Virus record (IMG/VR): IMGVR_UViG_3300011113_000434
Location: 1-54,750 of that record
From: a virus
Taxonomy: Duplodnaviria > Caudoviricetes
Length of the DNA: 54,750 bases
Direction: 5' to 3' (one strand)
The notes beneath the pieces were generated by a model that was not told where the DNA came from, did not search any database, and saw nothing but the letters and a program-made list of their open reading frames with translations. Position numbers and translations under genes: made by a program. Position 1 is the stretch's first letter; every line of letters begins with the position of its first letter. Below, piece by piece: positions 24,101-48,331 of this stretch.

Positions 24101-27100
24101 ACTAGTGATATTCCATTCGTAATGAATGGGTCTGTAAGATCTTCCGATACTCTTGATTTTAGACCAAGAGTAGCAGACTTTACTACATATCTTTATTCTC
24201 CATTTGCATTTACTTCAAGACTGTTTGGCAATTCTACTTCAAATACAACTCCAGTTTTAACCCCAAATGAAAGTACTTTAATAGGATATTCTTATTATCT
24301 TCCAAGAATTGATAAGATTGTTTTAAACAAAGAAGGAGACTTTACTTACTTAAAAGGTTCTTCATCTTTAAATCCAAAAGCACCTCTGAATGCTGAAGAG
24401 GCAATGGAAATTGCAACGGTAACTCTACCAGCTTATCTTTATAATCCAAAAGATGCTTCAATTTCTCTTGTAGACAATAGAAGATATACTATGAGAGATA
24501 TTGGAAAACTTGAAGATAGAATTGAAACTCTTGAAAAAGTAACTTCTCTTTCTCTTCTTGAAGTAGATACCAAAACCTTACAGATTCAAGATTCTGATGG
24601 TCTAACTAGATTTAAGTCTGGATTTTTTGTTGATGACTTTAAAAATAATGATTTGATTGATAAAACTGCAAAGGCAGATATCAATGTAAATAATGGGGAA
24701 TTGGTTGTTCCAACTGATCGATATTCACTAAAAGCGGAGATTGCTCTTAATTCTAGTTTAAATCAGTCAACTTCAGATTTTAGTACAGATTTAGCACTTT
24801 TAGATCCAAATGTTAGAAAAACTGGAGATTTAATTACTTTAAACTATCAAGAAAAAGGATGGATTGAACAACCACTGGCATCAAGAGTTGAAAATGTCAA
24901 TCCATTTAATATGGTTGAATTCAACGGAAATGTATTTTTACGTCCAGCATCAGATAGTTGGGTAAGAAATGTTTATGTACCAGGTTTTACAAGGCATGTA
25001 ACTGGTGGAGGTGACTATGAATATATCGAAAATATTAAAATTGCTACTGCTCCAGAAGAATGGATGAGATCAAGGAACGTTGAATTCCTTGCAGGTGGTC
25101 TGAAGCCATTAACAACTTACTACACATTCCTAGACAGTGTTAGTGGAATTGATGTAATTCCAAAAATTCTAGAAATTCAAATGATCTCTGGAGTATTCCA
25201 AATTGGAGAAGATGTTGAAGGATTTGTTGGCGGTAAAAAAATCATTACATTTAGAGCAACAAAACCAAACCATAAAACTGGACAATATGATAATCCTTCC
25301 AGATCTTATCAAATCAATCCATATGGTGGTGGAACATCGAGCACTCAACAAACGCTACCAGATACTTATTCTGCATCATCAACGGCACTGACAATTGATA
25401 CTGCGGCACTTGCAGCAGAAGCTCAAGGTAAATACTCTGGATATGTTGTTAAAGATGCGGTATTAGTCGGTAAAACAAGTCAAGCTCAAGCAAGAATTAC
25501 TAATGTCAGACTAAAATCTGATAATTGGGGAGACCTTCTTGGATGCTTCTTCCTTAGAGATCCTCTAACAACACCACCACCAACTATCAGAATAGGAACT
25601 GGAGTTAAAACATTTAAAGTTACTTCGAGTTCAACTAATGCAACTCCTCTGCCAGGAAGTCTATTAATTAGTAGTGCAGAAACAAACTATACATCGACAG
25701 GCATTGTTGATACCTATAGACAAGATACGGTTGTTGTTAGAAGACCACCACCACCCCCACCAAGAAGAGGAAAAGATCCTCTTGCACAATCATTTACTGT
25801 TGATGAAACAGGAGCATTCTTAACATCTGTTGATTTATTCTTTGCAAGTAAAGATGAATCTGAGAAGTGTTATGTTGAAGTTAGAACAGTTGAACTAGGA
25901 ACACCAACTAATAATCTAGTTCAAGATTTTGCAACACAAGTTTTAGAACCAAGTCAAGTTGCCATTTCAACCAATGCAACCGTTGCTACTAGAGTAACTT
26001 TCCCATCTCCTGTTTATCTGGAACCAAGAAAAGAATATGCAATTGTTGTTCTCGCACCATCTTCAAATAATTATGAGCTTTGGATTGCAAGAATGGGAGA
26101 AAAAACAGTTAATTCTCAATTCTTACCAGATGCAGAAAGTGTAATTGTTACCAAACAATATACTGGTGGTTCATTGTTCAAATCTCAAAATGGAACGATT
26201 TGGACAGCAAATCAATTTGAAGATATGAAGTTCAAGTTATATAAAGCTAACTTTACTTCTAATGATGGAACTGCTTATTTCTATAATCCAGAATTAGGAT
26301 CAGATGATAACAATGTTCCAACACTTCTTCCAAATTCAATTAAAACTTTACCAAGAAAATTAAAAGTTGGAATCACAACTACCGTTGGCAATATTCTAAG
26401 TAATGTTCTTGTTCCTGGTGTTAAGGTAAGTTCTGGAACACAACCAGGACCTGTTGGATATATTGAAAAAATTGGAGGAAATATTAGTGGAACACCAGTA
26501 ATTACCAATGCTGGTATTGGATATAGTAGTTCTGGTACATTTAATAATGTTCCACTGTATAATATCCTTGGATCTGGTAGTGGAGCGACTGCAAATATTG
26601 TTTTTGCAGGTAATAAAGTAAGTTCTGTTGCAATCGCAAGTACTGGTAGTGGATATGTAGTTGGTGATGTTCTTGGTATCACAACTAGTGCTGTAGTCAA
26701 AGGAACAAATGCTAGATTAACAGTTTCTTCAATTCAAGGTATTGATACTCTTTATCTGAATAATGTTCAAGGAGAAACCTTTACATCAGGAGATGCTCTA
26801 GTTTACTATACAGGTGATACTGCAACATCATTGGCAAGTACAACAATTAGAGGAACAACATCATTGATTAATGAATTAAATGATGGAAGAACTTTTGAAG
26901 TTTCCCAATACAATCACTCAATGCATTCTCCAAATAATGTCGTTGAAATAAAGAATGTAGAACCAAATACTGTCCCAACAACTCTAACATTAGCAGCTTC
27001 ATCTTCAGAAACTACAATCTCTGTTGCAAGCACAATAGGATTTAATAATTTTGAAGGAATAAGCACCAGCCAAGGATATATTAAGATTAACAATGAAATA

Positions 27101-28225
27101 ATGTATTATACCTCAATTACAGCAGGTGGTGCTGGGGCTGGATCTTTGGGAATTAGCAGTAGAGGAATTGATGGATCTGCAATTAGAAATCATAATATTA
27201 ATGATCTGGTTTATAAGTATGAACTTAATGGAGTTTCATTGACAAAGATCAATAAACTACACAGTTTCCCAACTGATGCTGCTCTAAGATCCTCAAATGA
27301 TATGGATAAGTATTATCTTCAAATTGATAGAGCAACTCGTGCAACTGGAAATACTCAATTAAGCTTTACTCAAGAAGCTCAAGTTGGTGGAAGTGACATT
27401 AAAGCATCACAGAATTTCCAATATGATGGAATTGCTCCTCAATTTAATATTATTGCACCAGGTCAATCAACATCAGTTTCTGCTCAGATGAGAACAATTT
27501 CTGGAACCAGTGCTGGTGGTTCTGAAGTTTCTTTCCAAGATCAAGGATTTGAACCAGTTCAGTTAAATGAGATTAATTTACTACCAACAACCAGAATTGT
27601 TTGCTCAAAAGTAAATGAAAATGCTAGATTAACAAATATTCCAAGAAATAAATCATTAACATTTGGAATAAGAATGCAAACATCTGATCCTAATCTTTCC
27701 CCTGTTATTGATACTGGTGAAGTTTCTGAGTTTGTATTCCGTAGAAGCAGACTCAATAAACCAGTTTCTAATTATGTTGTTGATGGTAGAGTAAATTCTG
27801 TAGATCAAGATCCACACTCAGCAATCTACATTTCGAATAAAGTTGATCTTGCTCAACCAGCAACTTCATTGAAGGCGATTGTTTCTGCATATAGAGACTC
27901 TTCTGCTGATTTCAGAGTTCTTTATAGATTATTCCATGCAGATTCAAATGGTGTAGACCCTGCTTATGAATTATTCCCAGGATATGATAACCTAATTGAT
28001 ACAAACGGTGATGGATATGGAGATGTAATTATTGATAGTAACTTAAATAGTGGAAGAGCAGATGCCTTTGTCAAGGCAAGTAGAGATAATGAATTCTTCG
28101 ATTATCAGTTCACTATAGATCAACTATCGCCATTTATTGGATATCAAATTAAGATTGTTATGAATGGCACTAATGAAGCGCGTTCACCAAGATTTAAAGA
28201 TCTAAGAACAATTGCACTTGCCTGA
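21119..28225 (+). CDS. Large virion structural protein, VrlC/DUF4815-like
   Basis: PYYDDFD..FYRVLFKPG.PVQARELT.LQS, APGADR, NRRYTMRDIG.LE.RI, DPLAQSF, GSLFKSQN..W and a DLR.IALA end. Confidence 0.88.
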   Translation: MPQKTNLNINPYYDDFDKYNNFYRVLFKPGYPVQARELTTLQSILQNQVESFGSHIFKEGSMVIPGGITYDLNYYAIKINPDHLGIDIALYIDQLVGLTLEGQTSGVTATVLGYLIPPDEGVETPTLFVKYKNSNNDAEFDTFNDKEVLITQSTITYGNTLINSGETVATVYPLNASAIGSRVNLAAGVYFIRGTFVDVQSSTVVLDPYENTPSYRVGLTILEEIVTSSDDSSLYDNAKGFSNYAAPGADRLKISAILSKKSLTDFDDKSFVELLRIDNGEVKKLQDKSQYSIIKDYFAKRTFEESGDYSIGNFKVEVTNSLNDRISSNGIYLDDQKTDSGNTPSDDLMCVKVSSGKAYVRGFDIDKVSTTVLDVEKPRDTSTVSSALVPFELGSLVRVNNVYGTPFVGINNNSSIVYLQNRRKETNTVGSGLTIGQARVYTYNLTESPYSQPSTQWDLYLFDIQTYTVITLNTSLTPQQCPQSSYIRGVSSGASGYVADSNTGATVTLLQTAGSFIAGEQILINESSEFSRSIQSVKAYNADDIKSVYQNSTSITTKLKTAFTADLVLQKSVPPGFNATDAIFIDNTGIATCAGKSFLGIRSDAIIRYQRPGIATETYSRVQYVSSDGFTMKLTGITSVANVCNGDLPIGITSTFNGPFKIGVPKIKQNDEASLYARLTSQNIASVNLGNSNILINSQLTEQSTSAAGSLVVNVSTTGISSAFFEAFDYDRYSVIYSDGTIESLRSDQVVFDLNSTQLTINGLRASQTNNVTVNTTVRKISVTNKVKQFLRSQKLDVTRTVSAATATLSGLSTSPYYGVRVEDREISLNVPDVVNVIAVYESLNQNAPILDKLSFVSGLNLDTATILGEQIVGSTSGAIAQLATKVPGVNGTQVEFVYLNDSKFQVGELATFKESNISANIQTITQGTYLDISDRYDLDKGQKEQYYDYSKLVRKLGSADPKRRLLVIYNRYDVPASDTGDVFTVNSYPSERFTSDIPFVMNGSVRSSDTLDFRPRVADFTTYLYSPFAFTSRLFGNSTSNTTPVLTPNESTLIGYSYYLPRIDKIVLNKEGDFTYLKGSSSLNPKAPLNAEEAMEIATVTLPAYLYNPKDASISLVDNRRYTMRDIGKLEDRIETLEKVTSLSLLEVDTKTLQIQDSDGLTRFKSGFFVDDFKNNDLIDKTAKADINVNNGELVVPTDRYSLKAEIALNSSLNQSTSDFSTDLALLDPNVRKTGDLITLNYQEKGWIEQPLASRVENVNPFNMVEFNGNVFLRPASDSWVRNVYVPGFTRHVTGGGDYEYIENIKIATAPEEWMRSRNVEFLAGGLKPLTTYYTFLDSVSGIDVIPKILEIQMISGVFQIGEDVEGFVGGKKIITFRATKPNHKTGQYDNPSRSYQINPYGGGTSSTQQTLPDTYSASSTALTIDTAALAAEAQGKYSGYVVKDAVLVGKTSQAQARITNVRLKSDNWGDLLGCFFLRDPLTTPPPTIRIGTGVKTFKVTSSSTNATPLPGSLLISSAETNYTSTGIVDTYRQDTVVVRRPPPPPPRRGKDPLAQSFTVDETGAFLTSVDLFFASKDESEKCYVEVRTVELGTPTNNLVQDFATQVLEPSQVAISTNATVATRVTFPSPVYLEPRKEYAIVVLAPSSNNYELWIARMGEKTVNSQFLPDAESVIVTKQYTGGSLFKSQNGTIWTANQFEDMKFKLYKANFTSNDGTAYFYNPELGSDDNNVPTLLPNSIKTLPRKLKVGITTTVGNILSNVLVPGVKVSSGTQPGPVGYIEKIGGNISGTPVITNAGIGYSSSGTFNNVPLYNILGSGSGATANIVFAGNKVSSVAIASTGSGYVVGDVLGITTSAVVKGTNARLTVSSIQGIDTLYLNNVQGETFTSGDALVYYTGDTATSLASTTIRGTTSLINELNDGRTFEVSQYNHSMHSPNNVVEIKNVEPNTVPTTLTLAASSSETTISVASTIGFNNFEGISTSQGYIKINNEIMYYTSITAGGAGAGSLGISSRGIDGSAIRNHNINDLVYKYELNGVSLTKINKLHSFPTDAALRSSNDMDKYYLQIDRATRATGNTQLSFTQEAQVGGSDIKASQNFQYDGIAPQFNIIAPGQSTSVSAQMRTISGTSAGGSEVSFQDQGFEPVQLNEINLLPTTRIVCSKVNENARLTNIPRNKSLTFGIRMQTSDPNLSPVIDTGEVSEFVFRRSRLNKPVSNYVVDGRVNSVDQDPHSAIYISNKVDLAQPATSLKAIVSAYRDSSADFRVLYRLFHADSNGVDPAYELFPGYDNLIDTNGDGYGDVIIDSNLNSGRADAFVKASRDNEFFDYQFTIDQLSPFIGYQIKIVMNGTNEARSPRFKDLRTIALA

Positions 28226-34700: not shown

Positions 34701-34949
34701 GAAAATTCAAGAACAACAGCAAGAGTTAAGTCTTGGGATGCAGATACTAGAACTCTAAAAGTTGGTATAAATAGTGGAACCTTTTATGAAGGAGAAGATG
34801 TTGTTGGAGCAGCATCTTCTGCGGTTTATGTTGTTTCTTCATATGATCAAACAGATATTTACGATCCTTATGAAGAAAATGATGAGATAGAAAATATTGC
34901 TGATCAAATTGTAGACTTTTCTGAATCAAATCCATTTGGAGCATATTAA
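31776..34949 (+). CDS. g14: Neck protein gp14 with long C-terminal insertions including an FG-GAP propeller
   Basis: N-terminal NPFF..EQ.L..E.LKIYG..YIPR, KFG, RPREGDLIYFP and LFE.KFVEHE.PFYQLG; C-terminal DFSESNPFG. Confidence 0.93.
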   Translation: MALNPFFLQGSPGEQRLVQELINEQLKIYGVEVTYIPRKILGTDDLLGSNDLREVNFSKFDDNFAIEAYVQNYEGYGGSGDILTKFGMSLRDEVTLVISRERYEDFVAQFISGLSEEEIIVASRPREGDLIYFPLGQRLFEVKFVEHENPFYQLGKNYVYELKCELYEYEDEILDTSVEEIDTVLKDQGYITTLIVAGLGETATASASLNSASGYVRKIYLNDDGTGYTSTPTVTISPSPIGANASAVAITTSKGGVLSISEILIINAGSGYISEPTITITGGGGAGAAATCSIEKNFNGVQSLSLVNGGSGYPIVPLITISAPVSVGAAATVSVGSTGAVNAFFVTTPGANYNPSKTPILTFSGPTQPPVATATAVVGNLTQVGLLTASDRYLNTEPNNDAEFGRSVAISTSHYLVGAQNFNPSTRNGRAYLTNRSTNTTSILIPSTPINNGYFGAAVGVAGTIVVVGTPGGVGGAGGVVYLYNTSGTAGAAAGISTSDYITAASGYLTSNNLGQSVGIAGTTIVAGAPASTQLAPLLDQIGALYIFQPRASGRYTQSAFINASDKQSNANFGYSVGIAGTTIVVGAPNHDNAGITTNSGQAYVFQTNSSGVWTQVGILSASDRQANGYFGYSVGIAGSTIVVGAPGQSRAGFAVTAGQAYVFQPNGTGTWTQVGILTANDVSQGEYAAFGSSVAIDGRVIVVGAYGKNAGSGIGSTSGKVYSFEFTSDGTIRQTGGTFSTGSPDNTLLGYSVSIAGTTILAGAPTGTISGTPGNINYTTGVASTTLDSAYLFDYTPTKTISSIIVNYGSVGYSTAPTVTISAPNNVGLGTTVAVASAIIGVGGVIAGFTISNPGTGYTVAPTVTISQPTLSGLQTATGYAVIGSSGTVTGYILTNPGFGYTLAPTVSIANTFADKIGLNTAVAVAYVNSSDQVSGIRIVDPGNGYTSAPTVTISNPPRISGIGTYEFNELIVGENSRTTARVKSWDADTRTLKVGINSGTFYEGEDVVGAASSAVYVVSSYDQTDIYDPYEENDEIENIADQIVDFSESNPFGAY
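32910..34165 (+). repeat. Seven FG-GAP-like repeats within gp14
   Basis: FGRSVAIS..LVGA, FGAAVGVAG..VVGTP, LGQSVGIAG..VAGAP, FGYSVGIAG..VVGAP (twice), FGSSVAIDG..VVGAY, LGYSVSIAG..LAGAP. A 26-nt exact repeat occurs at 33492 and 33666. Confidence 0.85.
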
Positions 34950-35992
34950 TGTTAGGGAATTATTTTTATCATCAAATCATTAGAAAAACTATAGTTTCTT
35001 TTGGAACTGTATTTAACCAAATCCACATTCATCACTATGATGATGCTGGAAACAAAACTAGTGATATGAGAGTTCCCTTGGCATATGGTCCAAGACAAAA
35101 ATTTCTTGCTAGATTAGAGCAGCAACCAGAATTAAATAAACCAATTCAAATTACATTGCCAAGAATGTCATTCGAAATGAATTCTTTGCAATATGATGCA
35201 ACTAGAAAAACGGGAGTTACACAAACATTTAAAGCAGTTTCTGGAACAAACTTAAAAAAAGTTTTTATGCCTGTTCCATATAATATTGGAATAGAATTAA
35301 ATATTCTTACAAAACTAAACGATGATGCTTTACAGATTGTGGAGCAAATTCTTCCATTTTTTCAACCAGCATTTACAATTACAGTTGATCTTGTTGAATC
35401 CATCGGTGAAAAAAGAGATATTCCAATTGTTTTAGATTCAATCAAATTTCAAGATGATTATGAGGGAGATTTCTCCACAAGAAGAGCTTTAATTTATACT
35501 TTACAATTTACTGCTAAAACATATCTCTTCGGTCCAATTGCAGATACAACCGATGGTCTGATTCGTAAGGTTCAGGTTGATCAATTTAGTTCAACTAATA
35601 GAACGAATGCTAGAAGAGAAATGAGATATACGGTAACTCCCAAAGCCCTTCAAGATTATGATGCTGATAACACAACGTTTATTACAGATCCAATTAGTGA
35701 TTTTACAGATACAATCCCAGTAAATGATTCTTCACTTCTTCAAATTGGAAATAGAATTGTTATTGATTCTGAAACAATGTTGATTACAAATATTGCTGGT
35801 AATAATATTGTTGTTCAGAGAGGATATGAAGGAACAACTGCAGCAACTCACGTTGATAACTCATTCATTAATGTTTTAACAGCGGCAGATAATCTTCTGA
35901 TTGAACCAGATGATGACTTTGGATTTAATGAAAACTTTACTTATTTCTCGGATTCTAGAACTTATAGCCCAACACGTGGTATAGATATTTAA
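34949..35992 (+). CDS. g15: Tail sheath stabiliser / tail terminator gp15
   Basis: YFYH..IRK....FG..FN, VPLAYGP.QKFLAR, LPRMSFE, PVPYN, QIVEQILP.F.P and DDYEGDF..RR motifs. Confidence 0.95.
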   Translation: MLGNYFYHQIIRKTIVSFGTVFNQIHIHHYDDAGNKTSDMRVPLAYGPRQKFLARLEQQPELNKPIQITLPRMSFEMNSLQYDATRKTGVTQTFKAVSGTNLKKVFMPVPYNIGIELNILTKLNDDALQIVEQILPFFQPAFTITVDLVESIGEKRDIPIVLDSIKFQDDYEGDFSTRRALIYTLQFTAKTYLFGPIADTTDGLIRKVQVDQFSSTNRTNARREMRYTVTPKALQDYDADNTTFITDPISDFTDTIPVNDSSLLQIGNRIVIDSETMLITNIAGNNIVVQRGYEGTTAATHVDNSFINVLTAADNLLIEPDDDFGFNENFTYFSDSRTYSPTRGIDI

Positions 35993-36005: not shown

Positions 36006-36431
36006 ATGTCAAATATGTTTGATAATCTTGATAAGGCATTTTCAACTGAAAGTGATATAGTTCCTGTTGAAGAAAAATCGGTCGAGATAGAAGTTGTCAA
36101 TAAAGAATCATCTGAAGACATAAAAAAAGATTACGACTACACACGTGCAAATTTATATTCATTAATTGAAAAAGGTCAAGAAGCAATTAATGGAATATTG
36201 GAACTTGCAGGAGAAGGGGGAAGTCCTAGAGCATATGAAGTTGCTGGTCAATTGATTAAAAGTGTTGCAGATACAACAGATAAACTAATGGATCTGCAAA
36301 AGAAATTAAAAGACGTTGAGCAAGATACTGTTAAAACAACTAATAACGTTACAAATAATGCATTATTTGTTGGATCAACATCTGAGTTATCAAAGATACT
36401 CAAACAAGGTTTTCTAAATAATAAGGAGTAA
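36006..36431 (+). CDS. g16: Terminase small subunit gp16
   Basis: DY.Y.R.NL..LI.KG, PRAYEV.GQLIK and FVGST.EL motifs; follows g15. Confidence 0.92.
   Translation: MSNMFDNLDKAFSTESDIVPVEEKSVEIEVVNKESSEDIKKDYDYTRANLYSLIEKGQEAINGILELAGEGGSPRAYEVAGQLIKSVADTTDKLMDLQKKLKDVEQDTVKTTNNVTNNALFVGSTSELSKILKQGFLNNKE
36413..36420 (+). promoter_or_regulatory. Probable late promoter for the g16-g17 insert
   Basis: TCTAAATA at the 3' end of g16, 23 nt before the ATG at 36444. Confidence 0.5.
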
Positions 36432-36443
36432 TCTACTTTTTCA

Positions 36444-38570
36444 ATGAGTTGGTCGGAAAAATATAAGCGATCTATTGATTGTGATAATCCAAAAGGATTT
36501 TCACAGAGAGCTCACTGTCAAGGTCGAAAGAAAAAATTGAAAGAGCAATTAAAACCATTTAAGTCAGTTGAACAGATTGCAAAAAAGCATCGTCTTGATG
36601 TTTCTTTCATTCAAAGGCAACTTGATATGGGTGAACCAATTGAACATGAACACACAAAAGATCATAAGTTGGCGATGGAGATTGCCCTTCAGCATTTAGA
36701 TGAAATTCCAGATTATTATACTCGTTTGAAAAAGATGGAAGCATCTGCTAAAAAAGAGCATAAAAAATTTAAAGATGTAAAAGAACATTGTGGTTGTGAA
36801 GATAATGCTGTGGAAGAACTTGAAGATCAATTAAAAGATCTAAAAGACACTTCTTATGATTCAATTGATAAATTAATGCGTCGTATTATGAAAAAGCATG
36901 ATATGACCGCAAAGCAATTACATAATGCATTTGTAGATAAAAATGGAAAAACTCCAGATGATTGGATTGAAGATCTGGAAGAAGGAACTTTACACCACTG
37001 GTTTAGAGGTTCTCGTTCTAAGGGTGGCAAACCAGGTTGGGTTCAAGCAGATGGTTCTCCTTGTGCTAATGAACCTGGAGAAACTAAAACTCCAAAATGT
37101 TTTAGTAGCGGCAGATTAAAATCACTCAAAAGAAAAGGTAAAAAAGGATTAGCGTTAATAAAATCAGCAGTTAGACGTAAAAGACAAAAAGATAAAGGGC
37201 AACAAGCAAAATCTGGAGCAGCAGCGCCAACTAATGTTCCAACTTTTGCAAAGGGTAAAAAAGATCCAAATTATGTAAAAGCAGAACCAGGAATTAAAGA
37301 AGCAATGGAACTTAACGAAGCAAAAAAAGACAAGCCTGGAAAAGGAAGTGGAACTAAGGATGCTTGCTACCATAAAGTTAAAGCAAGATATGACGTTTGG
37401 CCAAGTGCATATGCATCTGGAGCACTTGTAAAATGTCGTAAAGTTGGCGCAGATAATTGGGGAAATCAATCAGAAGAAACTCAAATGATCAGATATTGTC
37501 CAAAGTGTCAAAAAGATGAGACACGTTCAGAATGCAAATATGGTCCAAAATATTGGGATATGTTTTCTATTCCATCTTCATTAACTGGATTGAGTGCAAA
37601 TCAAATAAAATATGATCCAAATAGACCTCATCCAGCAAATGAAGCCTATGATCATGAGTATTCAATGGCTCGCTCAGAACTTTCAACAATTATTGCTGCT
37701 GCAAAAAGATTGAAGAAAAAAATTGGAAAGGGTGAAGGTAGTCTTGAGGCATGGGTTCAATCAAAGATTACCAAAGCAGCAGATTATATTGATACTGCTG
37801 CTGATTATGTTGATAGTGGTGAGATGAGTGAGGGTATTATTGATACTCTTGCTGCAAAAGTTGGACCTGTTATTGATAAAGGTGTAAACGCTGTTTTTGG
37901 AAAACCAAAAGTAACTATTAAAGAACCTAAAGTTACTCCTTCACCCACTTCTGGTTATCCAAATAAAGCAGTTCCAGAACCAGCATCTAATAGATTTTTA
38001 AGACCTGCTCCTTCTCCATCTCCAACCCCATCATCTTCAGCACAACCACAACAAAAAAATTATGGAAATGTTGGATCAGTTGGAAATGTGGGCGGAAATT
38101 TAAGATATGTTATGGATAAAGCAAAAGAAAGAAATAAGATACTAAATCAACAAAATTCTTATCAACCAGAAGGAGATCTAATTGACGAAGCAGGTAAAAA
38201 GTGTTGGACTGGTTACAAGAAGAAAGGTACACAAGAATTATTTGGTAAGAAATATAATCGTTGCGTTAAAGAAGGATATTCAAACTGGAGAGAAGAACTT
38301 GGTTTAACTGAAGATTGGCAGTCAGTCAATCGTAAAGATAAAACTGATGGTCTCAGCCAGAAAGCAGTTGATGCTTATCGCCGCGAAAACCCAGGTTCAA
38401 AACTACAAACGGCAGTAACAGAGAAAAATCCAAAAGGTAAGAGAGCTAAGCGTCGTGCCAACTTCTGTCGCAGAATGAAAGGAATGAAATCTAAACTAAC
38501 CTCTGCTAAGACAGCAAGGGATCCTGATAGCAGGATAAATAAAGCACTAAGACGTTGGAATTGTCGCTGA
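36444..38570 (+). CDS. Modular basic, Cys-containing protein (708 aa); candidate head-packaged polyprotein
   Basis: Long ORF built from short, compositionally distinct modules joined at hydrophobic-x-E motifs. Confidence 0.8.
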   Translation: MSWSEKYKRSIDCDNPKGFSQRAHCQGRKKKLKEQLKPFKSVEQIAKKHRLDVSFIQRQLDMGEPIEHEHTKDHKLAMEIALQHLDEIPDYYTRLKKMEASAKKEHKKFKDVKEHCGCEDNAVEELEDQLKDLKDTSYDSIDKLMRRIMKKHDMTAKQLHNAFVDKNGKTPDDWIEDLEEGTLHHWFRGSRSKGGKPGWVQADGSPCANEPGETKTPKCFSSGRLKSLKRKGKKGLALIKSAVRRKRQKDKGQQAKSGAAAPTNVPTFAKGKKDPNYVKAEPGIKEAMELNEAKKDKPGKGSGTKDACYHKVKARYDVWPSAYASGALVKCRKVGADNWGNQSEETQMIRYCPKCQKDETRSECKYGPKYWDMFSIPSSLTGLSANQIKYDPNRPHPANEAYDHEYSMARSELSTIIAAAKRLKKKIGKGEGSLEAWVQSKITKAADYIDTAADYVDSGEMSEGIIDTLAAKVGPVIDKGVNAVFGKPKVTIKEPKVTPSPTSGYPNKAVPEPASNRFLRPAPSPSPTPSSSAQPQQKNYGNVGSVGNVGGNLRYVMDKAKERNKILNQQNSYQPEGDLIDEAGKKCWTGYKKKGTQELFGKKYNRCVKEGYSNWREELGLTEDWQSVNRKDKTDGLSQKAVDAYRRENPGSKLQTAVTEKNPKGKRAKRRANFCRRMKGMKSKLTSAKTARDPDSRINKALRRWNCR

Positions 38571-38746
38571 TGAAATTCGATCCCGATGATATCTCTTTAG
38601 AGAATCTAACTAAAAACTTTGAGTATACAAAGATTGCACGTGAGATTGATTCTTGTGATGATCTTGAATATATGAAAAATGTTGCAAAGTGCTATGTAAA
38701 ACTTTATTTCAAAACACAAGAAACAATCGCAGCAATGGTCAAATGA
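38570..38746 (+). CDS. Small helical protein, NblA-like (58 aa)
   Basis: TGATG coupling gives MKFDPDDISLENLTKNFEYTKIAREIDSCDDLEYMKNVAKCYVKLYFKTQETIAAMVK. Size and two-helix hydrophobic pattern resemble NblA. Confidence 0.45.
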   Translation: MKFDPDDISLENLTKNFEYTKIAREIDSCDDLEYMKNVAKCYVKLYFKTQETIAAMVK

Positions 38747-39057
38747 AATCATTCAAAGAATTTCTATCAGAAAGCATTAATATTGCTGGTGATTTCAACG
38801 GTAATCTTTACGTTAATAGTTCCGAAACACAATCGGAACCAGTTGGGGAATCTTTTCTTGCAGATATAATGTGGCAAGGAAAAATATATCGCCTTGAAGT
38901 TGAGGGTAAAATGATGGATAAAAACTCTCTAACAGAACAAATTCAAGGTGAATATCCTGGCGCGATTGTTCATAATGTTTATCCATTAACACAAAATTCT
39001 GTAAAAATTAAAAACGCACAGAGGTATAAGCCTGAAAGTTTAAATTGGGGTGATTGA
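38743..39057 (+). CDS. Hypothetical protein with a T4-like capsid targeting sequence (104 aa)
   Basis: ATGA overlap with the upstream stop; begins MKSFKEFLSES. Confidence 0.75.
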   Translation: MKSFKEFLSESINIAGDFNGNLYVNSSETQSEPVGESFLADIMWQGKIYRLEVEGKMMDKNSLTEQIQGEYPGAIVHNVYPLTQNSVKIKNAQRYKPESLNWGD

Positions 39058-39060
39058 TTT

Positions 39061-40374
39061 ATGGCTCAGTTTAATAAGAATGAACAGGATTTCCTAAATC
39101 AGGAAAGAACTCTTTTTGAAGTGAATATGATTGCCAATAAAAATGGCAATGTTGTTACAACAAGTAATCCATTTCCAGTTACTGGAGATCTACAGATATC
39201 TGGTCAGGAATATACAAGTAAAAATAGAGCTAAAGTATCTCCATATCAAACGGTATTTTTCAATACTTTCCAGTATGGTCTAGAGACTGATGTATGGGAG
39301 ACATCAATCGTAGGTATTGCTTCTGCAGTTCATAATCCCAATGCATCCAATGTTACAATGTCTGTTGGAGTCACAACAGGTTCCAAAGTGATCCGACAAA
39401 CCAGGACTGTAATGAGATACATTCCTGGCAGAACATCTACAATATCTTTTGCAATTCGTTTAGAAGCTCCAGTGGTAGGAATTCGTAGAAGATTTGGAGT
39501 TTTTGATGAGAGAAATGGTGCTTTCTTTGAGGACGATGGTGGAACATATTCTTGCGTTATTCGTAGTTCTACAACAGGAATTACATCAGAAACAAGAATA
39601 GTCAGAGATAACTGGAATGGAGACAAATTAGATGGTTCTGGACCTAGTGGTATAATTGCAAATCCAGTTCCACAACAGATGATTAATATTGAATATGAGT
39701 GGTATGGTGCAGGTGAAGTAAAATTTACTTTTACGATTGATGGAGAAACTCACATAATTCATAGATTCCAACATGCAAACAGAATAAATCAATTATGGTG
39801 CGGAACTCCATTTTTACCAATTCGTTGTGAACTTGAGAATGTAACTGGTGTTGCAGGAACTCATTACATGTATCAGGGTTCTAACTCACTTTCTCAAGAA
39901 GGAGAACCAGAGAAACTTGGAACTCTTGTCAGTCAAGGTAATGCAATTACTGGAACTACAATGTCAGTTGCAAATACTTTTTATCCAATTCTCAGTCTTC
40001 GCCTTAAACCAAGTTGTCTGAGTGGAGTTGTTCTTCCAAGATCAATTCAGGTATCTACGAATGATAACACTAACATTTTCTGGAGATTAATTGAGAACCC
40101 AACTCTAGTCGGTGCAGCATTTACTGATCATGCAAACCCAGATGCAATTACTCAATATGATACCACTGCAACTTCTTTCACTGGTGGTAAAGTTCTTTTA
40201 AGTGGATTTGTTGTTGGTGGTGGAGGAAGTCAGGTAGTTATTGATGATAAAGCGCAATTACAGATTGGTAGAAGTGGTATTGGAACAATTAGCGATATTT
40301 ACACTCTTGTGTGTGCCTCACCTAACGCTAACAAGGCAGCACTTGCAATTATTAACTGGTTGGAACAAAGGTAA
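39061..40374 (+). CDS. Beta-rich hypothetical protein, probably virion-associated (lectin/jelly-roll-like)
   Basis: 437-aa ORF with RQT...MRY.PGR, FG.FD..NG.FFE and EYEWYGAG motifs; Gly/Thr-rich like the structural proteins. Confidence 0.65.
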   Translation: MAQFNKNEQDFLNQERTLFEVNMIANKNGNVVTTSNPFPVTGDLQISGQEYTSKNRAKVSPYQTVFFNTFQYGLETDVWETSIVGIASAVHNPNASNVTMSVGVTTGSKVIRQTRTVMRYIPGRTSTISFAIRLEAPVVGIRRRFGVFDERNGAFFEDDGGTYSCVIRSSTTGITSETRIVRDNWNGDKLDGSGPSGIIANPVPQQMINIEYEWYGAGEVKFTFTIDGETHIIHRFQHANRINQLWCGTPFLPIRCELENVTGVAGTHYMYQGSNSLSQEGEPEKLGTLVSQGNAITGTTMSVANTFYPILSLRLKPSCLSGVVLPRSIQVSTNDNTNIFWRLIENPTLVGAAFTDHANPDAITQYDTTATSFTGGKVLLSGFVVGGGGSQVVIDDKAQLQIGRSGIGTISDIYTLVCASPNANKAALAIINWLEQR

Positions 40375-40380
40375 TTAATT

Positions 40381-42081
40381 ATGTCTGATGATGTTTACTT
40401 AGGTAATCCGAACCTCAAGAGGGCAAACACGCCTATTGAGTTTACGGAAGAAAATATTCTAGAATTTGTAAAATGCAAAAGTGATCCTGTTTACTTTGCA
40501 AAAAACTATATAAAGATTGTAACTCTTGATCATGGATTACAACCTTTTAAGATGTATCCATTTCAAGAGAAGTTGATCAAAAACTTCCACAATCACAGAT
40601 TTAATATCTGTAAGATGCCTCGCCAGACAGGTAAATCAACAACTTGTGTTTCGTATTTGTTACATTATGCCATCTTTAACGATAACGTTAATATAGCTAT
40701 ATTGGCGAACAAAGCATCTACTGCAAGAGATCTTCTCCAAAGATTACAACTTGCTTATGAGAACTTGCCAAAGTGGATGCAACAAGGTATTTTATCTTGG
40801 AATAAAGGTTCTCTAGAACTCGAAAATGGATCCAAAATTTCAGCAAACTCTACATCTTCATCTGCTGTCAGAGGCGGATCGTATAATATCATCTTTTTGG
40901 ACGAATTCGCTTTCATCCCGAATCACATTGCTGACGACTTCTTTGCCTCTGTTTATCCTACTATTTCTTCTGGTCAAAGCACAAAGGTCATCATAGTTTC
41001 CACGCCACGTGGAATGAATCATTTCTACCGCATGTGGCATGATGCGGAAAGAGATAAAAATGAATATGTCCCAACAGAAGTTCACTGGTCTGAAGTTCCA
41101 GGAAGAGATGATAAGTGGAAAGCACAAACCATTGCAAACACATCAGAACAACAGTTCCGTGTTGAGTTTGAGTGTGAGTTTCTGGGATCAGTCGATACAC
41201 TGATCAACCCAGCTAAACTTAGAACTCTCGTTTATGATGATCCAATAAAAAGGAATAAAGGATTGGATGTTTATTTGAATCCAATTGAGGAGCATAATTA
41301 TCTCATTACAGTTGACGTTGCTCGTGGAGTTGGTAGTGATTATTCTGCATTCATAGTTTTTGATATTACAAACTTTCCATATAGAGCAGTTGCAAAATAC
41401 AAAAACAATGAAATAAAACCAATGCTATTCCCAGCAATTATTCACCAAATTGCAAAAGCATATAATGATTCTTGGGTTTTGATTGAAGTTAATGACATTG
41501 GAGATCAGGTAGCAAATATTCTTCACTTTGATCTTGAATATGATAATGTTTTGATGTGTGCAATGAGAGGTCGTGCAGGTCAAATTGTTGGATCTGGATT
41601 TAGTGGTAAAAAATCCCAACTTGGTGTCCGCATGACATCTGCTGTTAAAAAATTAGGATGCTCTAATTTAAGAACTTTGATTGAGGATGATAAACTTGTA
41701 GTTAATGACTATGATATTATTAGCGAGCTAACTACATTTACTCAACGCCATAATACTTTTATGGCAGAAGAGGGATGTAACGATGACCTTGCAATGTGTC
41801 TTGTTATTTTCTCTTGGTTAGTTGCTCAGCAATACTTTAAAGAAATGACGGATAATGATGTCCGTAAGAGAATTTATGATGAGCAAAAAAATCAAATAGA
41901 ACAGGATATGTCACCTTTTGGATTTATCTCAGATGGATTTGAGGATACTGAAGAAATAACTGTTGATGTTGCTACTGGTGACAAATGGTTATTTGCAAAA
42001 GCAAAGAGTGAAATTGAAACAATGGAAATTTGGAACGTTGATGAATATGGGGATAGATCTTATATGTGGGATTACAGATAA
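40381..42081 (+). CDS. g17: Terminase large subunit gp17
   Basis: YLGNPNLK, Walker A PRQTGKST, Walker B IFLDEFAF, VSTP.G.NHFY, DVARGVG.DYSA and nuclease DDL motifs. Confidence 0.98.
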   Translation: MSDDVYLGNPNLKRANTPIEFTEENILEFVKCKSDPVYFAKNYIKIVTLDHGLQPFKMYPFQEKLIKNFHNHRFNICKMPRQTGKSTTCVSYLLHYAIFNDNVNIAILANKASTARDLLQRLQLAYENLPKWMQQGILSWNKGSLELENGSKISANSTSSSAVRGGSYNIIFLDEFAFIPNHIADDFFASVYPTISSGQSTKVIIVSTPRGMNHFYRMWHDAERDKNEYVPTEVHWSEVPGRDDKWKAQTIANTSEQQFRVEFECEFLGSVDTLINPAKLRTLVYDDPIKRNKGLDVYLNPIEEHNYLITVDVARGVGSDYSAFIVFDITNFPYRAVAKYKNNEIKPMLFPAIIHQIAKAYNDSWVLIEVNDIGDQVANILHFDLEYDNVLMCAMRGRAGQIVGSGFSGKKSQLGVRMTSAVKKLGCSNLRTLIEDDKLVVNDYDIISELTTFTQRHNTFMAEEGCNDDLAMCLVIFSWLVAQQYFKEMTDNDVRKRIYDEQKNQIEQDMSPFGFISDGFEDTEEITVDVATGDKWLFAKAKSEIETMEIWNVDEYGDRSYMWDYR

Positions 42082-46965: not shown

Positions 46966-47148
46966 ATGGAAGAACTTATCGATTTGATTGCAACAGGATC
47001 TTCTGCATCCAATGTTAGTGACAAGATTAAGGAACTTTTGTACGCTAAAGCTGCTGAAAAAGTTAATCTAACTAGACCTGATGTTGCCGCTTCTTTATTT
47101 GGACAACCTGAAGTGAGTACTGATGAATACACCGAGGATGAAGAATAA
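46966..47148 (+). CDS. Small acidic prohead core protein (gp67-like by position)
   Basis: 60 aa with an acidic tail, directly after g20 as T4 g67 is. Confidence 0.6.
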   Translation: MEELIDLIATGSSASNVSDKIKELLYAKAAEKVNLTRPDVAASLFGQPEVSTDEYTEDEE

Positions 47149-47675
47149 TGGCGATAAAACTTGTACAAAATGTAAGCAGGGTTTCACCAACAGTTTCTGC
47201 AGCTGCAACCAGTAATCCCATTGCCCTAAAAAGCGGATATATTAGAGTATCCACAGGAGCAACTGGAGTATATGTAGAGACTGGTGGGAATCCTATTGTG
47301 TCAGTAAATTCTTTCCACGTTCCACCATATAGTGCTGAAGTTTTGAAAGAAAGAATTGCAAAACAACAAATTGCTGGGATAACTACTGGAACTTCAACAG
47401 TAGTTAGATTTTCAGAAAATGCAGGAAATCCATTTATAGTTGGTGATTATGTAACTATTGAAAATGCTCAACCAGCAGGTATTAATACTGTTCATCAACT
47501 AGTAAGTGCAACAACAGATTCTACTGTAACAATTTCAACTAATACATCATCAATTGTTGGTGTTATTACATATTTGGGTGCAACATTATCGAGAAGTGTA
47601 AAGGTTGGATCTCTTGCTGAGGCATCTGGAACAAATCTCAGCATTACAGAAATAGTTCAATTAGTCTCAGAATAA
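47148..47675 (+). CDS. Hypothetical virion-associated protein
   Basis: TAATG coupling; Ser/Thr/Gly-rich with NPF.VGDYVTI; lies between g20 and g21. Confidence 0.7.
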   Translation: MAIKLVQNVSRVSPTVSAAATSNPIALKSGYIRVSTGATGVYVETGGNPIVSVNSFHVPPYSAEVLKERIAKQQIAGITTGTSTVVRFSENAGNPFIVGDYVTIENAQPAGINTVHQLVSATTDSTVTISTNTSSIVGVITYLGATLSRSVKVGSLAEASGTNLSITEIVQLVSE

Positions 47676-47680
47676 AAAAA

Positions 47681-48331
47681 ATGAAACTCATCACAGAAGA
47701 AATCCAAAAGGTAGAATTTATCGTTGAAGGCAAAGGTGCCGCTAAGAAAATGTATATTGAAGGTGTATTCCTTCAAGGCAACATTTGTAATCGTAATGGT
47801 AGAATGTATCCTATGGAAACTCTTGCCCGTGAGGTAAAGAGATATGATGAAAGCTTTATTCAAAAAGGACGTGCTCTTGGTGAACTTGGACATCCTGATG
47901 GTCCAACCGTAAACCTTGATCGTGTTTCACATAAAATTGTTTCACTTACTCAAGAAGGAAACAATTTCAGGGGTAAAGCACAATTGCTGGAAACGCCAAT
48001 GGGTAAGATTGCTAAATCACTCATCGATGAAGGTGTTTGTCTTGGCGTTTCTTCTCGTGGTGTTGGTTCACTCAAGATGACCAATGAAGGTCATAAAATT
48101 GTTGGTGAAGATTTCATGTTAGCAACTGCTGCTGATATCGTTGCCGATCCTTCTGCACCTGACGCTTTTGTTCAGGGAATTATGGAGGGTAAAGAATGGG
48201 TTTGGGATGGTGGAATTCTTCGTGAAAAACTCGCTGAGCAAACACAAAGAAGAATCAATACTCTTGTTGATCAAAAAAGACTTGAAGAGCACAAGTTGAA
48301 TTTATTCAACGAGTTTCTTTCAAATCTATAA
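47681..48331 (+). CDS. g21: Prohead protease gp21
   Basis: MKLITE, IEG.FLQ...NRNGR.YP, ALGELGHP, GVSSRG.GS and D.VADPSAP.AFV motifs. Confidence 0.97.
   Translation: MKLITEEIQKVEFIVEGKGAAKKMYIEGVFLQGNICNRNGRMYPMETLAREVKRYDESFIQKGRALGELGHPDGPTVNLDRVSHKIVSLTQEGNNFRGKAQLLETPMGKIAKSLIDEGVCLGVSSRGVGSLKMTNEGHKIVGEDFMLATAADIVADPSAPDAFVQGIMEGKEWVWDGGILREKLAEQTQRRINTLVDQKRLEEHKLNLFNEFLSNL

What the first reader, a model, noticed from the sequence alone, without database searches (positions are those of the whole stretch)
36444..38570. Candidate protease-processed polyprotein of ~10 small effectors between the terminase genes
Seen: distinct mini-modules joined at hydrophobic-x-E sites: LKE/Q, VKE/H, LEE/G, IKE/A and LNE/A, (SEE/T), ANE/A, MSE/G, IDE/A, VKE/G, LTE/D. 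Modules include CDNPKGFSQRAHC; EHEHT..IALQHL.E.PDYY..L (His/Glu metal-site-like); WF...GWV..CA..PKC; DACYHKVK..WPSAYASGALVKCRK; CPKC..EC; HEYSMARSEL..WVQSKIT; CWTGY..NRCV; and a basic RRANFCRRM..SRINKALRRWNC domain. Known: T4 gp21 cleaves head proteins after (I/L)-x-E, and gp23 here has LYE/A at the expected position. Inference: one late gene is packaged in the prohead, cut by gp21 into many basic, Cys-paired peptides and injected as a mix of DNA-binding or anti-defence factors.
Basis: partly seen in the sequence, partly recalled or inferred. Interest (0 to 1): 0.85.

Follow-up and report, generated by a model that had tools for sequence, protein, structure and literature searches.

The report
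Protease-punctuated head cargo polyprotein in cyanophage
A 708-residue gene between the terminase genes of a T4-like cyanophage is a string of small, freely shuffled protein modules separated by conserved sites that look like cutting sites for the phage's own head protease, so it is probably chopped into many small proteins inside the capsid.

Summary
The ORF (36444-38570, 708 aa) is real and lies between gp16 and gp17 of a T4-like cyanomyovirus. It consists of about ten modules, including Pfam DUF5661 and DUF6321.

- **Family size.** 11,383 database representatives match it. Module order differs in almost every one of the 150 examined, but DUF6321 is nearly always last.
- **Conserved junction sites.** Four other listed sites are weak or unsupported.
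- **Structure.** The junctions fall in low-confidence linkers of the AlphaFold model.
- **Stand-alone forms.** The same modules occur as single genes with an N-terminal decapeptide close to T4's capsid-targeting sequence (MKTYQEFIAE), ending in E directly before the domain.
- **Podophages.** There the module has no leader.
- **Virion evidence.** Module-bearing proteins of S-CREM2 are in its published virion proteome. Database annotations point the same way for S-SM1 and S-SCSM1.

**Verdict.** This is probably a head-internal cargo polyprotein cut by gp21. Cleavage, injection and function are untested. This protein has no capsid-targeting leader of its own. I rate it a new variant of a known kind.

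The parts
36444..38570 (+). Whole ORF, 708 aa, pI 9.6, 79.7 kDa. Member of phrog_727 and of Sullivan's T4-GC119 family.
36444..36545 (+). Module A (aa 1-34), two conserved Cys, ends LKE|Q.
   Evidence: Found in 38 of 151 proteins. 2 Cys in 37 of 38. Junction motif in 0.59 of 51 aligned homologues.
36546..36785 (+). Module B (aa 35-114), Pfam DUF5661, helical, ends VKE|H.
   Evidence: PF18905 E 1.3e-13. pLDDT above 90. Junction motif 0.51 of 59. The same domain sits in the DUF2213-DUF5661-coiled-coil protein upstream of the capsid gene of Vibrio phage VPs20.
36786..36983 (+). Module C (aa 115-180), acidic helical (pI 4.7), begins HCGC, ends LEE|G.
   Evidence: Found in 20 of 151 proteins. Junction motif 0.61 of 105. 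pLDDT dips at 181-186.
36984..37319 (+). Module D (aa 181-292): WF..GWV..C..PKC core plus a basic tail, ends LNE|A (a weaker IKE|A lies at 286).
   Evidence: Found in 121 of 151. 2 Cys in 19 of 19. Junction motif 0.58 of 108. pLDDT below 50 at 287-304.
37320..37478 (+). Module E (aa 293-345): DACYHKVK..WPSAYASGALVKCRK.
   Evidence: Found in 127 of 151. 2 Cys in 94 of 95. 0.90 of 97 internal starts are preceded by hydrophobic-x-E. The SEE|T end is not a conserved site of this type (0.05).
37479..37832 (+). Modules F (aa 346-400, CPKC..C, 3 Cys) and G (aa 401-463, HEYSM helical hairpin), usually one unit, ending MSE|G.
   Evidence: F in 60 and G in 92 of 151. F has 3 Cys in 32 of 32. Junction at 463: 0.51 of 86. 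ANE|A at 400: only 0.19.
37833..38189 (+). Module H (aa 464-582): one helix, then a Pro/Ser-rich stretch predicted disordered, ending IDE|A.
   Evidence: Found in 8 of 151. pLDDT below 50 at 480-551 and 572-583. Junction motif 0.50 of 105.
38190..38312 (+). Module I (aa 583-610, CW.GY..C beta-hairpin, 2 Cys) plus the 13-residue spacer GYSNWREELGLTE (aa 611-623) ending LTE|D.
   Evidence: Found in 115 of 151. 2 Cys in 40 of 40. Strands at 591-609. Junction at 623: 0.52 of 124. Junction at 610: 0.23.
38313..38567 (+). Module J (aa 624-708), Pfam DUF6321, very basic (pI 11.2), 2 Cys, almost always the C-terminal module.
   Evidence: PF19846 E 7.1e-13. Found in 117 of 151. Stand-alone forms. Forms with a targeting-like leader.
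47681..48331 (+). gp21 prohead protease, the proposed processing enzyme.
   Evidence: Peptidase_S77 E 9.5e-37.
38743..39057 (+). Downstream neighbour, 104 aa, phrog_1742. It starts MKSFKEFLSE|S, a leader like T4's capsid-targeting sequence, which suggests the targeting and cleavage system operates in this phage.
   Evidence: The orthologue has the same leader in 9 of 10 control cyanophage loci.

Best explanation
The gene encodes a head-internal cargo polyprotein. It is made late, together with the neighbouring packaging and structural genes, and enters the prohead core. The gp21-type serine protease (47681-48331) then cuts it after the Glu of conserved [V/L/I/M]-x-E junctions.

Cuts are most likely after residues 34, 114, 180, 292, 463, 582 and 623. 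Cuts at 286, 400 and 610 are possible. The products would be about eight pieces of 4-19 kDa. Most are basic and most carry a conserved Cys pair. They would stay in the DNA-filled head, as T4 internal proteins do.

Shown here:
- the module architecture;
- junction motif conservation independent of which modules are neighbours;
- shuffling of module order between phages;
- stand-alone forms with a leader like T4's capsid-targeting sequence;
- leaderless forms in podophages;
- homologues in a virion proteome.

Inferred:
- that the junctions are cut, that gp21 does it, and that the location is inside the head;
- late expression: only co-orientation and tight packing with gp16 were seen, and the TATAAATA scan found no match near the ORF.

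Speculative: that the pieces leave with the DNA and act on the host (DNA-associated or counter-defence roles like T4 IPI*).
For: 1. Junction motif.
- Seven query positions keep [LIVMF]-x-E in 50-61% of aligned homologues, against a background of 1.9% per position. P2 and P3 vary.
- In an all-against-all comparison of 151 proteins, the motif ends exactly at 11% of 1187 well supported homology-break ends, and one residue before at 8%. Background is about 2%.
- Internal module starts preceded by the motif within 7 positions (chance 0.13): A 0.93 (n=14), E 0.90 (97), J 0.88 (113), B 0.80 (20), D 0.60 (105), F 0.55 (58), I 0.52 (124), C 0.50 (16), G 0.37 (82). This holds whatever the upstream module is.
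- Logo of 415 junctions: P3 V29/L24/I24/M19/F4 %, P1' A23/G21/E17/D15 %.

2. The protease and its known rule.
- A Peptidase_S77 gene is in the window.
- T4 gp21 cuts after L/I-x-E (PMC9026906, passages read).
- The predicted gp23 propeptide sites are FLYE|A here, ILTE|T in S-SM1 and ILSE|T in S-SSM5.

3. Structure. AlphaFold pLDDT falls below 50 at 181-186, 287-304, 342-347, 394-403, 459-461, 572-583 and 612-618, which are the junctions.

4. Separate-ORF forms.
- 3989 proteins of 46-149 aa match module J.
- Of the 120 listed, 113 start with Met. 61 of these start with a decapeptide such as MKTLKNFITE, MINLKEFLNE or MKTFQEFIVE placed directly before the domain.
- T4 IPIII and IPII start MKTYQEFIAE|A.
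- In the review, residues 4 and 7 of that leader serve targeting and residues 8 and 10 serve processing. The same positions are aromatic/hydrophobic and [LIVM]/E in the marine leaders.
- Neighbouring ORFs in those loci carry the same leader. One is a leader-D-A-I mini-polyprotein.
- One of five such contigs, all 21-36% complete, holds a Peptidase_S77 gene.

5. Podophages. In 4 of 4 small podophages inspected, J is an 82-94 aa ORF with no leader and no preceding hydrophobic-x-E.

6. Virions.
- S-CREM2 ORF137 (C-like + I-J) and ORF160 (D-I-E) are the ORFs that my search matched.
- Both are in Table 3 of the CsCl-purified virion proteome, with 4 and 7 unique peptides (PMC10665884, section 18 read).
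- T4-GC119 genes carry the note that marks orthologues of S-SM1 virion proteins. In S-SSM5 104-150 kb, 7 of 65 features carry it: gp18, gp19, gp20, gp21, gp23, gp3 and GC190. gp17, gp22 and the replication genes do not.
- The S-B43 record calls the gene a structural protein.
- BFVD lists the S-SCSM1 member as 'Virion protein'.
Against: - No cleavage product, neo-N-terminus or protease assay exists for any family member in what I could read.
- P0001 has no N-terminal leader like the capsid-targeting sequence and no internal one. None of the 148 Met-started long representatives has one at the N-terminus. The route into the prohead is therefore unexplained.
- Internal leader-like motifs in long proteins are not more frequent than in shuffles overall (24 observed, mean 16.1, sd 4.3).
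- The Syn9 homologue gp114 is not labelled 'structural protein' in a record that labels other virion proteins so.
- S-PM2, a T4-like cyanophage with gp21, has no homologue at E<=0.001.
- P3 is often Val or Met, outside the published L/I rule for T4.
- 39-50% of homologues lack the exact motif at each strong junction.
- Linkers rich in Lys and Glu raise the chance of x-x-E, and local alignments tend to end on conserved residues.
- Peptide coverage of S-CREM2 ORF137 is only 4.1%.
- Stand-alone J in pelagiphages lies among small genes after the endolysin, not in a head module.
- The mature parts show no significant similarity to T4 IPII or IPIII (best pairwise E 0.03).
Confidence: 0.62

Rival explanations
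1. It is an uncleaved, beads-on-a-string virion protein, for example a capsid-inner-surface or neck-associated protein. The hydrophobic-x-E motifs would be only the usual ends of helices or charged linkers between small domains.
For: - No cleavage has been observed.
- There is no N-terminal targeting leader.
- Linkers are rich in Lys and Glu, so x-x-E is common there.
- 39-50% of homologues lack the exact motif at each junction.
Against: - The motif is kept at junctions whatever the neighbouring modules are, with variable P2 and P3 but fixed P1 Glu.
- The same modules exist as single genes whose leader resembles the T4 capsid-targeting sequence and ends in Glu exactly at the domain start.
- Podophage copies have neither the leader nor the Glu.
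Confidence: 0.15
2. It is cut by gp21, but it acts as a prohead core or scaffold accessory, or simply as a DNA counter-ion. The fragments would be largely expelled or would only neutralise DNA charge. They would not be delivered effectors.
For: - In T4, proteins cut at many sites are core proteins whose fragments mostly leave the head (PMC9026906, passages).
- The protein is strongly basic (pI 9.6, 14% Lys), while the scaffold gp22 of this phage is very acidic.
- Module B occurs in a protease/scaffold-position protein of Vibrio phage VPs20.
Against: - The modules are conserved, predicted to fold and Cys-paired.
- They are kept as individual genes in many phages, including podophages without this protease.
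- Their combinatorial turnover resembles the variable internal-protein repertoires of T-even phages (PMC9026906, passage).
- Peptides are found in mature virions.
Confidence: 0.15
3. The conserved junctions are recombination linkers: short conserved DNA stretches that promote module exchange. They would not be sites selected at the protein level. Alternatively, they are cut by a different protease.
For: - Module order is reshuffled in nearly every one of 150 representatives and in isolates, so recombination at junctions is frequent.
- Cyanophages encode other peptidases, for example T4-GC146 in S-SSM5.
Against: - P3 uses five residues and P2 is almost free, so no fixed codon string is conserved.
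- The motif matches the specificity class of the prohead protease encoded in the same window and the predicted gp23 maturation site.
Confidence: 0.05

Closest known systems
T4 internal proteins IPI, IPII, IPIII and Alt (capsid-targeting sequence plus gp21 processing)
   Same: - The phage has a gp21 (S77) protease.
- The predicted cut is after Glu with a hydrophobic P3.
- The products are small and mostly basic.
- The repertoire is highly variable between related phages.
- Stand-alone relatives of the modules carry a decapeptide leader very close to MKTYQEFIAE. One (P0197) matches 9 of the first 11 residues of IPIII.
   Different: - Here about ten modules are strung in one ORF, separated by internal sites, rather than one leader per gene.
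- This ORF has no leader of its own.
- P3 includes Val and Met.
- The mature parts show no significant sequence similarity to IPII or IPIII.
T4 prohead core proteins gp22, gp67 and gp68, which gp21 cuts into several fragments
   Same: Multiple gp21-type sites occur in one polypeptide. Some T4 fragments remain in the head as internal peptides (PMC9026906, passages).
   Different: Those are scaffold proteins, acidic or coiled-coil. This protein is a chain of conserved, independently occurring, Cys-paired mini-domains, and its relatives are detected in mature virions.
Inner-body and ejection proteins of phiKZ-like giant phages (phiKZ, 201phi2-1, SPN3US), processed by a gp21-related protease
   Same: Head-internal proteins are cut after Glu at a short motif, often at several sites per protein. 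The families are paralogous and variable (PMC9026906, passages).
   Different: The motif there is S/A-x-E. The proteins are large and unrelated, and no comparable combinatorial shuffling of 30-110 residue modules is described in what I read. I made no homology test against them.
Pfam DUF5661 and DUF6321; PHROG 727; T4-GC119 of Sullivan et al. 2010
   Same: The protein matches all of these.
   Different: These entries give no function. I found no paper holding 'DUF5661' or 'DUF6321'.

Membership tests
Substrates of the T4-type prohead protease gp21 (head-internal proteins) | The phage encodes a Peptidase_S77 (gp21) protease | tested here: met
   Window 47681-48331, PF03420, E 9.5e-37.
Substrates of the T4-type prohead protease gp21 (head-internal proteins) | Cleavage motif L/I-x-E present at exposed sites | tested here: met
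   Five of the seven conserved junctions have L or I at P3 (34 L, 180 L, 292 L, 582 I, 623 L); 114 has V and 463 has M. Five of the seven (180, 292, 463, 582, 623) lie at or beside segments with pLDDT below 50; 34 lies in a confident helix and 114 in a milder dip (block mean 61). Only the presence of the motif was tested, not cleavage.
Substrates of the T4-type prohead protease gp21 (head-internal proteins) | Actual cleavage after Glu during head maturation | not testable with these tools
   Needs virion N-terminomics or an in vitro gp21 assay. The supplementary peptide tables of the proteome papers were closed.
Substrates of the T4-type prohead protease gp21 (head-internal proteins) | N-terminal capsid-targeting sequence (about 10 residues ending in hydrophobic-x-E) | tested here: not met
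   P0001 starts MSWSEKYKRS. 0 of 148 long relatives match the leader pattern, and P0001 has no internal match. The feature is met by 61 of 113 short J proteins and by the downstream ORF 38743-39057.
Substrates of the T4-type prohead protease gp21 (head-internal proteins) | Presence in purified virions | tested here: inconclusive
   Homologues S-CREM2 ORF137 and ORF160 are in the published virion proteome. Record annotations imply the same for S-SM1 and S-SCSM1. Syn9 gp114 is not labelled structural. Nothing is known for this uncultured phage.
Pfam DUF6321 (PF19846) | HMM match above the gathering score | tested here: met
   49.4 bits against a cut-off of 28.5, residues 631-705.
Pfam DUF5661 (PF18905) | HMM match above the gathering score | tested here: met
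   51.5 bits against a cut-off of 27, residues 43-99.
T4-GC119 (cyanophage gene cluster of Sullivan et al. 2010) | Homology to annotated GC119 genes, and the position after gp16 in many phages | tested here: met
   tblastn matches SSM2_109, SSSM5_108, SSM1_115 and PSSM4_160, all annotated T4-GC 119. The position is not universal: in P-SSM4 and S-PRM1 the gene lies elsewhere.
phiKZ-type inner-body proteins | S/A/G-x-E sites and homology to inner-body protein families | not tested
   No sequence comparison was made. Only SEE|T at 345 has that motif type, and it is not a conserved hydrophobic-x-E site.

The most novel reading that the evidence does not exclude
T4-like cyanophages carry a combinatorial payload gene. 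It is a polyprotein whose Cys-paired mini-proteins are released by the prohead protease inside the capsid and delivered with the DNA as a mix of host-takeover or counter-defence factors that can be reshuffled.

The cleavage junctions would double as the seams at which modules are swapped between phages. They would descend from capsid-targeting leaders of formerly separate genes. In some relatives the J module is still preceded by an internal K-T/S-F-x-x-F-[MIV]-x-E sequence.

The same capsid-targeting code would then be conserved from coliphage T4 to ocean phages, and it would mark further packaged enzymes such as the cytidylyltransferase.
Probability: 0.3. Interest if true: 0.85.

Novelty: new variant of a known kind. 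Interest (0 to 1): 0.72.

Why it matters
- **Abundance.** T4-like cyanophages are among the most abundant viruses in the sea. This gene family has 11,383 database representatives and no assigned function.
- **Testable rule.** If the reading holds, it gives a simple rule for which proteins ride inside these capsids: a leader like the T4 capsid-targeting sequence, or junctions of hydrophobic-x-Glu.
- **Reach of the T4 system.** It would extend the T4 targeting and gp21 system to ocean phages.
- **Evolution.** It would be a rare case of polyprotein logic in a tailed phage, with cleavage sites serving as seams for module exchange.
- **Candidates.** It names a large pool of small, independently folding candidate effectors to test in phage-cyanobacterium conflicts.
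- **Prior work.** In the held library I found no paper describing this.

Tried and rejected
- **Fold searches.** Foldseek of the full model against the PDB gave no match at E<=0.001. VIA-align of the J model against 48,161 chains gave a best Z of 3.3, which is not informative. BFVD returned only other DUF6321 phage proteins.
- **ESM Atlas look-alikes.** These gave only virus-only uncharacterised clusters, with DUF5872 on 19% of one cluster.
- **Own genome.** The record is the 54,750-base window itself (26% complete) and has no second copy.
- **S-PM2.** No homologue.
- **Internal targeting-like motifs in long proteins.** Not enriched overall (24 against a shuffle mean of 16.1). About 17 of the 24 do have the full K-T/S-F..F-[MIV]-x-E form before a J module.
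- **T4 late promoter word TATAAATA.** 4 matches against 6.2 expected, none just upstream of the ORF.
- **S-SCSM2R ORF117.** It sits between the terminase genes but has no Pfam family. The DUF6321 protein of that phage is ORF176, elsewhere in the genome. The paper does not name the one unknown virion protein in its main text.
- **My ORF caller.** It gave three spurious 30-31 aa calls (L067, L070, L091). I ignore them.
Full report
**What is there**

The window is the structural block of a T4-like cyanomyovirus. It is an IMG/VR record of 54,750 bases, estimated 26% complete. The gene order is:
- gp15, 34949-35992;
- gp16/TerS, 36006-36431;
- the ORF in question, 36444-38570;
- a 63-aa gene, 38555-38746 (phrog_27081);
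- a 104-aa gene, 38743-39057 (phrog_1742);
- a virion structural protein, 39061-40374 (phrog_1645);
- gp17/TerL, 40381-42081;
- then gp18, gp19, gp20, a DUF7243 protein, gp21 (Peptidase_S77), gp22 and gp23.

The ORF encodes 708 aa, with pI 9.6 and 14% Lys. Pfam finds DUF5661 (residues 43-99) and DUF6321 (631-705). PHROGs finds phrog_727 (E 5e-87) and eleven further families with profile lengths of 99 to 928. Those families match only parts of the protein, which is a first sign of mosaicism.

The closest isolates are Kyanoviridae phages. S-SRM01 matches at 51% identity over the full length. Others match in two to five separate pieces. In Sullivan's records the gene is 'T4-GC 119'.

**Checking the observation**

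All the quoted strings are present. Within this protein alone, hydrophobic-x-E is moderately enriched over shuffles: [LIVM]xE[AG] occurs 6 times against 1.1 expected, reached by 0.001 of 5000 shuffles.

The stronger test uses relatives. A search of 1.84 billion representatives gave 11,383 hits at E<=1e-3. I worked with the best 150.

- **Unbiased position scan.** Only 8 of 708 query positions have the motif in at least 40% of aligned homologues: 34, 87, 114, 180, 292, 463, 582 and 623. Position 87 is a fixed LDE|I inside DUF5661.
- **Weak and unsupported sites.** IKE/A-286 (0.29), VKE/G-610 (0.23) and ANE/A-400 (0.19) are weak. SEE/T-345 (0.05) is a homology boundary but not a site of this type.
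- **All-against-all comparison.** This did not use the query's module definitions. The motif ends exactly at 11% of 1187 well supported homology-break ends, and one residue before at 8%, against about 2% elsewhere.

**Modules and shuffling**

I cut the query at the junctions into modules A to J and searched each iteratively. Of the 151 proteins, D occurs in 121, E in 127, I in 115, J in 117, G in 92, F in 60, B in 46, A in 38, C in 20 and H in 8.

Almost every protein has its own order, for example C-G-B-D-E-F-J, A-F-G-D-H-I-E-J and B-I-F-G-I-J. J is nearly always last. D-E and F-G often travel together.

Isolates show the same thing:
- DSL-LC02 has B-A-(E..G)-I-J.
- S-SM2 has A-G-D-E-I-J.

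Internal module starts are preceded by the motif far more often than the 0.13 expected, and this does not depend on the upstream module. A, E and J are at 0.88-0.93. G is lowest at 0.37, because F-G is usually one unit.

A logo of 415 junctions gives P3 V/L/I/M (96% together with F) and P1' A/G/E/D.

Cys counts are fixed per module: A, D, E and I have 2, F has 3, J has 2 or 4, and B and G have 0.

The AlphaFold model (mean pLDDT 69.8) shows confident small units. B-C is above 90. Confidence drops below 50 at 181-186, 287-304, 342-347, 394-403, 459-461, 480-551, 572-583 and 612-618. Five of the seven strong junctions (180, 292, 463, 582, 623) therefore sit at predicted flexible linkers. Junction 34 lies in a confident helix, and junction 114 in a milder dip (block mean 61).

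**Evidence that bears on the mechanism**

*Protease rule.* T4 gp21 cuts after L/I-x-E, and 10-residue N-terminal capsid-targeting sequences bring internal proteins into the prohead (PMC9026906, passages).

*Short forms with a T4-like leader.*
- A search for short relatives of module J returned 3989 proteins of 46-149 aa.
- Of the 120 listed, 113 start with Met.
- 61 of those begin with a decapeptide such as MKTLKNFITE, MINLKEFLNE, MKSFKEFVLE or MKTFQEFIVE. It is followed directly by the J domain, or by I then J.
- I read T4 IPIII and IPII from the T4 record. Both start MKTYQEFIAE|A.
- The marine leaders keep the positions that the review names for targeting (4 and 7) and for processing (8 and 10).
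- In all 120 listed sequences the residue before the J domain is Glu.

*Neighbourhoods of the short forms.*
- In IMG/VR loci holding such short forms, neighbouring ORFs have the same leader. Examples are a cytidylyltransferase-like protein, a 153-aa protein, and a 202-aa protein that reads leader-D-A-I.
- One of five of these contigs carries a Peptidase_S77 gene. All five are only 21-36% complete.

*Long forms.* 64 of 80 J-bearing IMG/VR loci have ORFs longer than 160 aa, mostly flanked by cyanophage gp14-gp20.

*Isolates.*
- In all 14 T4-like isolates inspected, the J-bearing protein is 355-815 aa.
- In 4 of 4 small podophages, J is a leaderless ORF of 82-94 aa with no Glu site before the domain. 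These are three pelagiphages and the T7-like P-SCSP1c, where the gene follows the capsid gene.

*Leaders in this window and in relatives.*
- The window holds two ORFs with such leaders: 38743-39057 (MKSFKEFLSE|S), directly downstream, and 52022-53986 (MKTFVKFISE|C).
- The leader pattern is rare: 3 of 442 ORFs in five cyanophage loci, against a shuffle mean of 0.67. It picks out IPII and IPIII in T4.
- One of the three hits is the S-SSM5 cytidylyltransferase (GC190). Sullivan et al. report the GC190 protein in S-SM1 virions (PMC3037559, passages).

**Virion association**

- **S-CREM2.** The record matched P0001 in two ORFs: 108049-109521 (C-like plus I-J) and 128342-129235 (D, I, E). Both are in Table 3 of the CsCl-purified virion proteome, as ORF137 (4 unique peptides, 4.1% coverage) and ORF160 (7 peptides, 13.1%) (PMC10665884, section 18).
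- **S-SM1, by inference.** It is absent from gp16, gp17, gp22 and the replication genes; 7 of 65 features carry it. GC119 genes carry it. I infer that the S-SM1 member was detected in virions. Table S8, which would show this, was closed.
- **S-B43.** The record names the gene a structural protein of GC0119.
- **S-SCSM1.** BFVD lists the DUF6321 protein as 'Virion protein'.
- **Against.** Syn9 gp114 is not labelled structural.

**Best explanation and its limits**

The most economical reading is a head-internal cargo polyprotein cut by gp21 at about seven junctions into pieces of 4-19 kDa. The open points are:
- Cleavage has not been observed.
- The long forms have no N-terminal leader (0 of 148), and P0001 has no internal one.
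- How the protein enters the prohead is unknown. Electrostatic association of this basic protein with the very acidic gp22 is only a guess.
- Function is unknown. Fold searches gave nothing.

The extreme recombination of modules recalls the variable internal-protein sets of T-even phages, which the review links to arms races. That is an analogy, not evidence.

**Comparison with the known**

The protein works like T4 internal proteins and the multi-cut core proteins, and like phiKZ inner-body proteins. It is not homologous to IPII or IPIII, and it fails the N-terminal leader criterion.

What is new is the architecture: many autonomous mini-proteins in one ORF, with junction motifs that match the protease rule. 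Also new is the finding that leaders like the T4 capsid-targeting sequence are common in marine T4-like phages.

I found no description of either point in the held library:
- 'DUF6321' and 'DUF5661': 0 papers each.
- Cyanophage with polyprotein or prohead protease.
- Capsid targeting sequence with cyanophage: only the T4 review, where 'cyanophage' appears once, in a reference title.
- Two further searches.

Subscription papers on Syn9 and S-PM2 virions were not readable.

Noticed in passing
window 38743-39057 (+): A 104-aa protein (phrog_1742) directly downstream starts MKSFKEFLSE|S, a leader like T4's capsid-targeting sequence. The ORF listing starts it at a GTG at 38689, but the ATG at 38743 gives the leader. 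Its orthologue has the same leader in 9 of 10 cyanophage loci checked.
   Followed up: partly
window 52022-53986 (+): A 654-aa ORF between UvsY and UvsW starts MKTFVKFISE|C, also like the capsid-targeting sequence. It has no Pfam family. It may be another packaged protein.
   Followed up: partly
L017 44917-46001 (S-SSM5 SSSM5_178); L098-L101 loci: The cyanophage cytidylyltransferase (T4-GC190), reported in S-SM1 virions, starts MKKFSAFLTE|A. Related 627-759 aa proteins in IMG/VR loci start MKFKDFINE and similar. This would explain how the enzyme gets into capsids.
   Followed up: partly
L021 4401-5669 (Vibrio phage vB_VpaM_VPs20): DUF5661 (module B) is inserted between a DUF2213 domain and a coiled-coil tail in the 422-aa protein encoded two genes upstream of the major capsid protein gene. 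That is the position where a protease or scaffold gene would be expected.
   Followed up: partly
window 47148-47675 (+); L009 27999-28535 (S-SM1 SSM1_114): A DUF7243 protein lies between portal and protease here. In S-SM1 and S-SSM5 a DUF7243 gene (T4-GC403) sits right after gp16, next to the GC119 gene, and carries the S-SM1 virion note.
   Followed up: no
window 38555-38746 (+): A 63-aa TTG-started ORF matches phrog_27081 (E 2.8e-27). It overlaps the last 16 bases of the polyprotein gene and the first bases of the next gene.
   Followed up: no
window 5358-19529 and 21119-28225 (+): Two giant ORFs of 4723 and 2368 aa lie in the tail and baseplate region. I did not examine them.
   Followed up: no
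L022 2151-2363 (Caulobacter phage Cr30): A stand-alone DUF5661-like 70-aa protein starts MKDFKSFLNA. This resembles the targeting leader but has Ala where the Glu would be.
   Followed up: no
L028 1291-1881 (P-SSM4 PSSM4_158): A 196-aa protein (T4-GC422) just upstream of the P-SSM4 GC119 gene starts MLSFKAYLAE|K, like the targeting leader.
   Followed up: no
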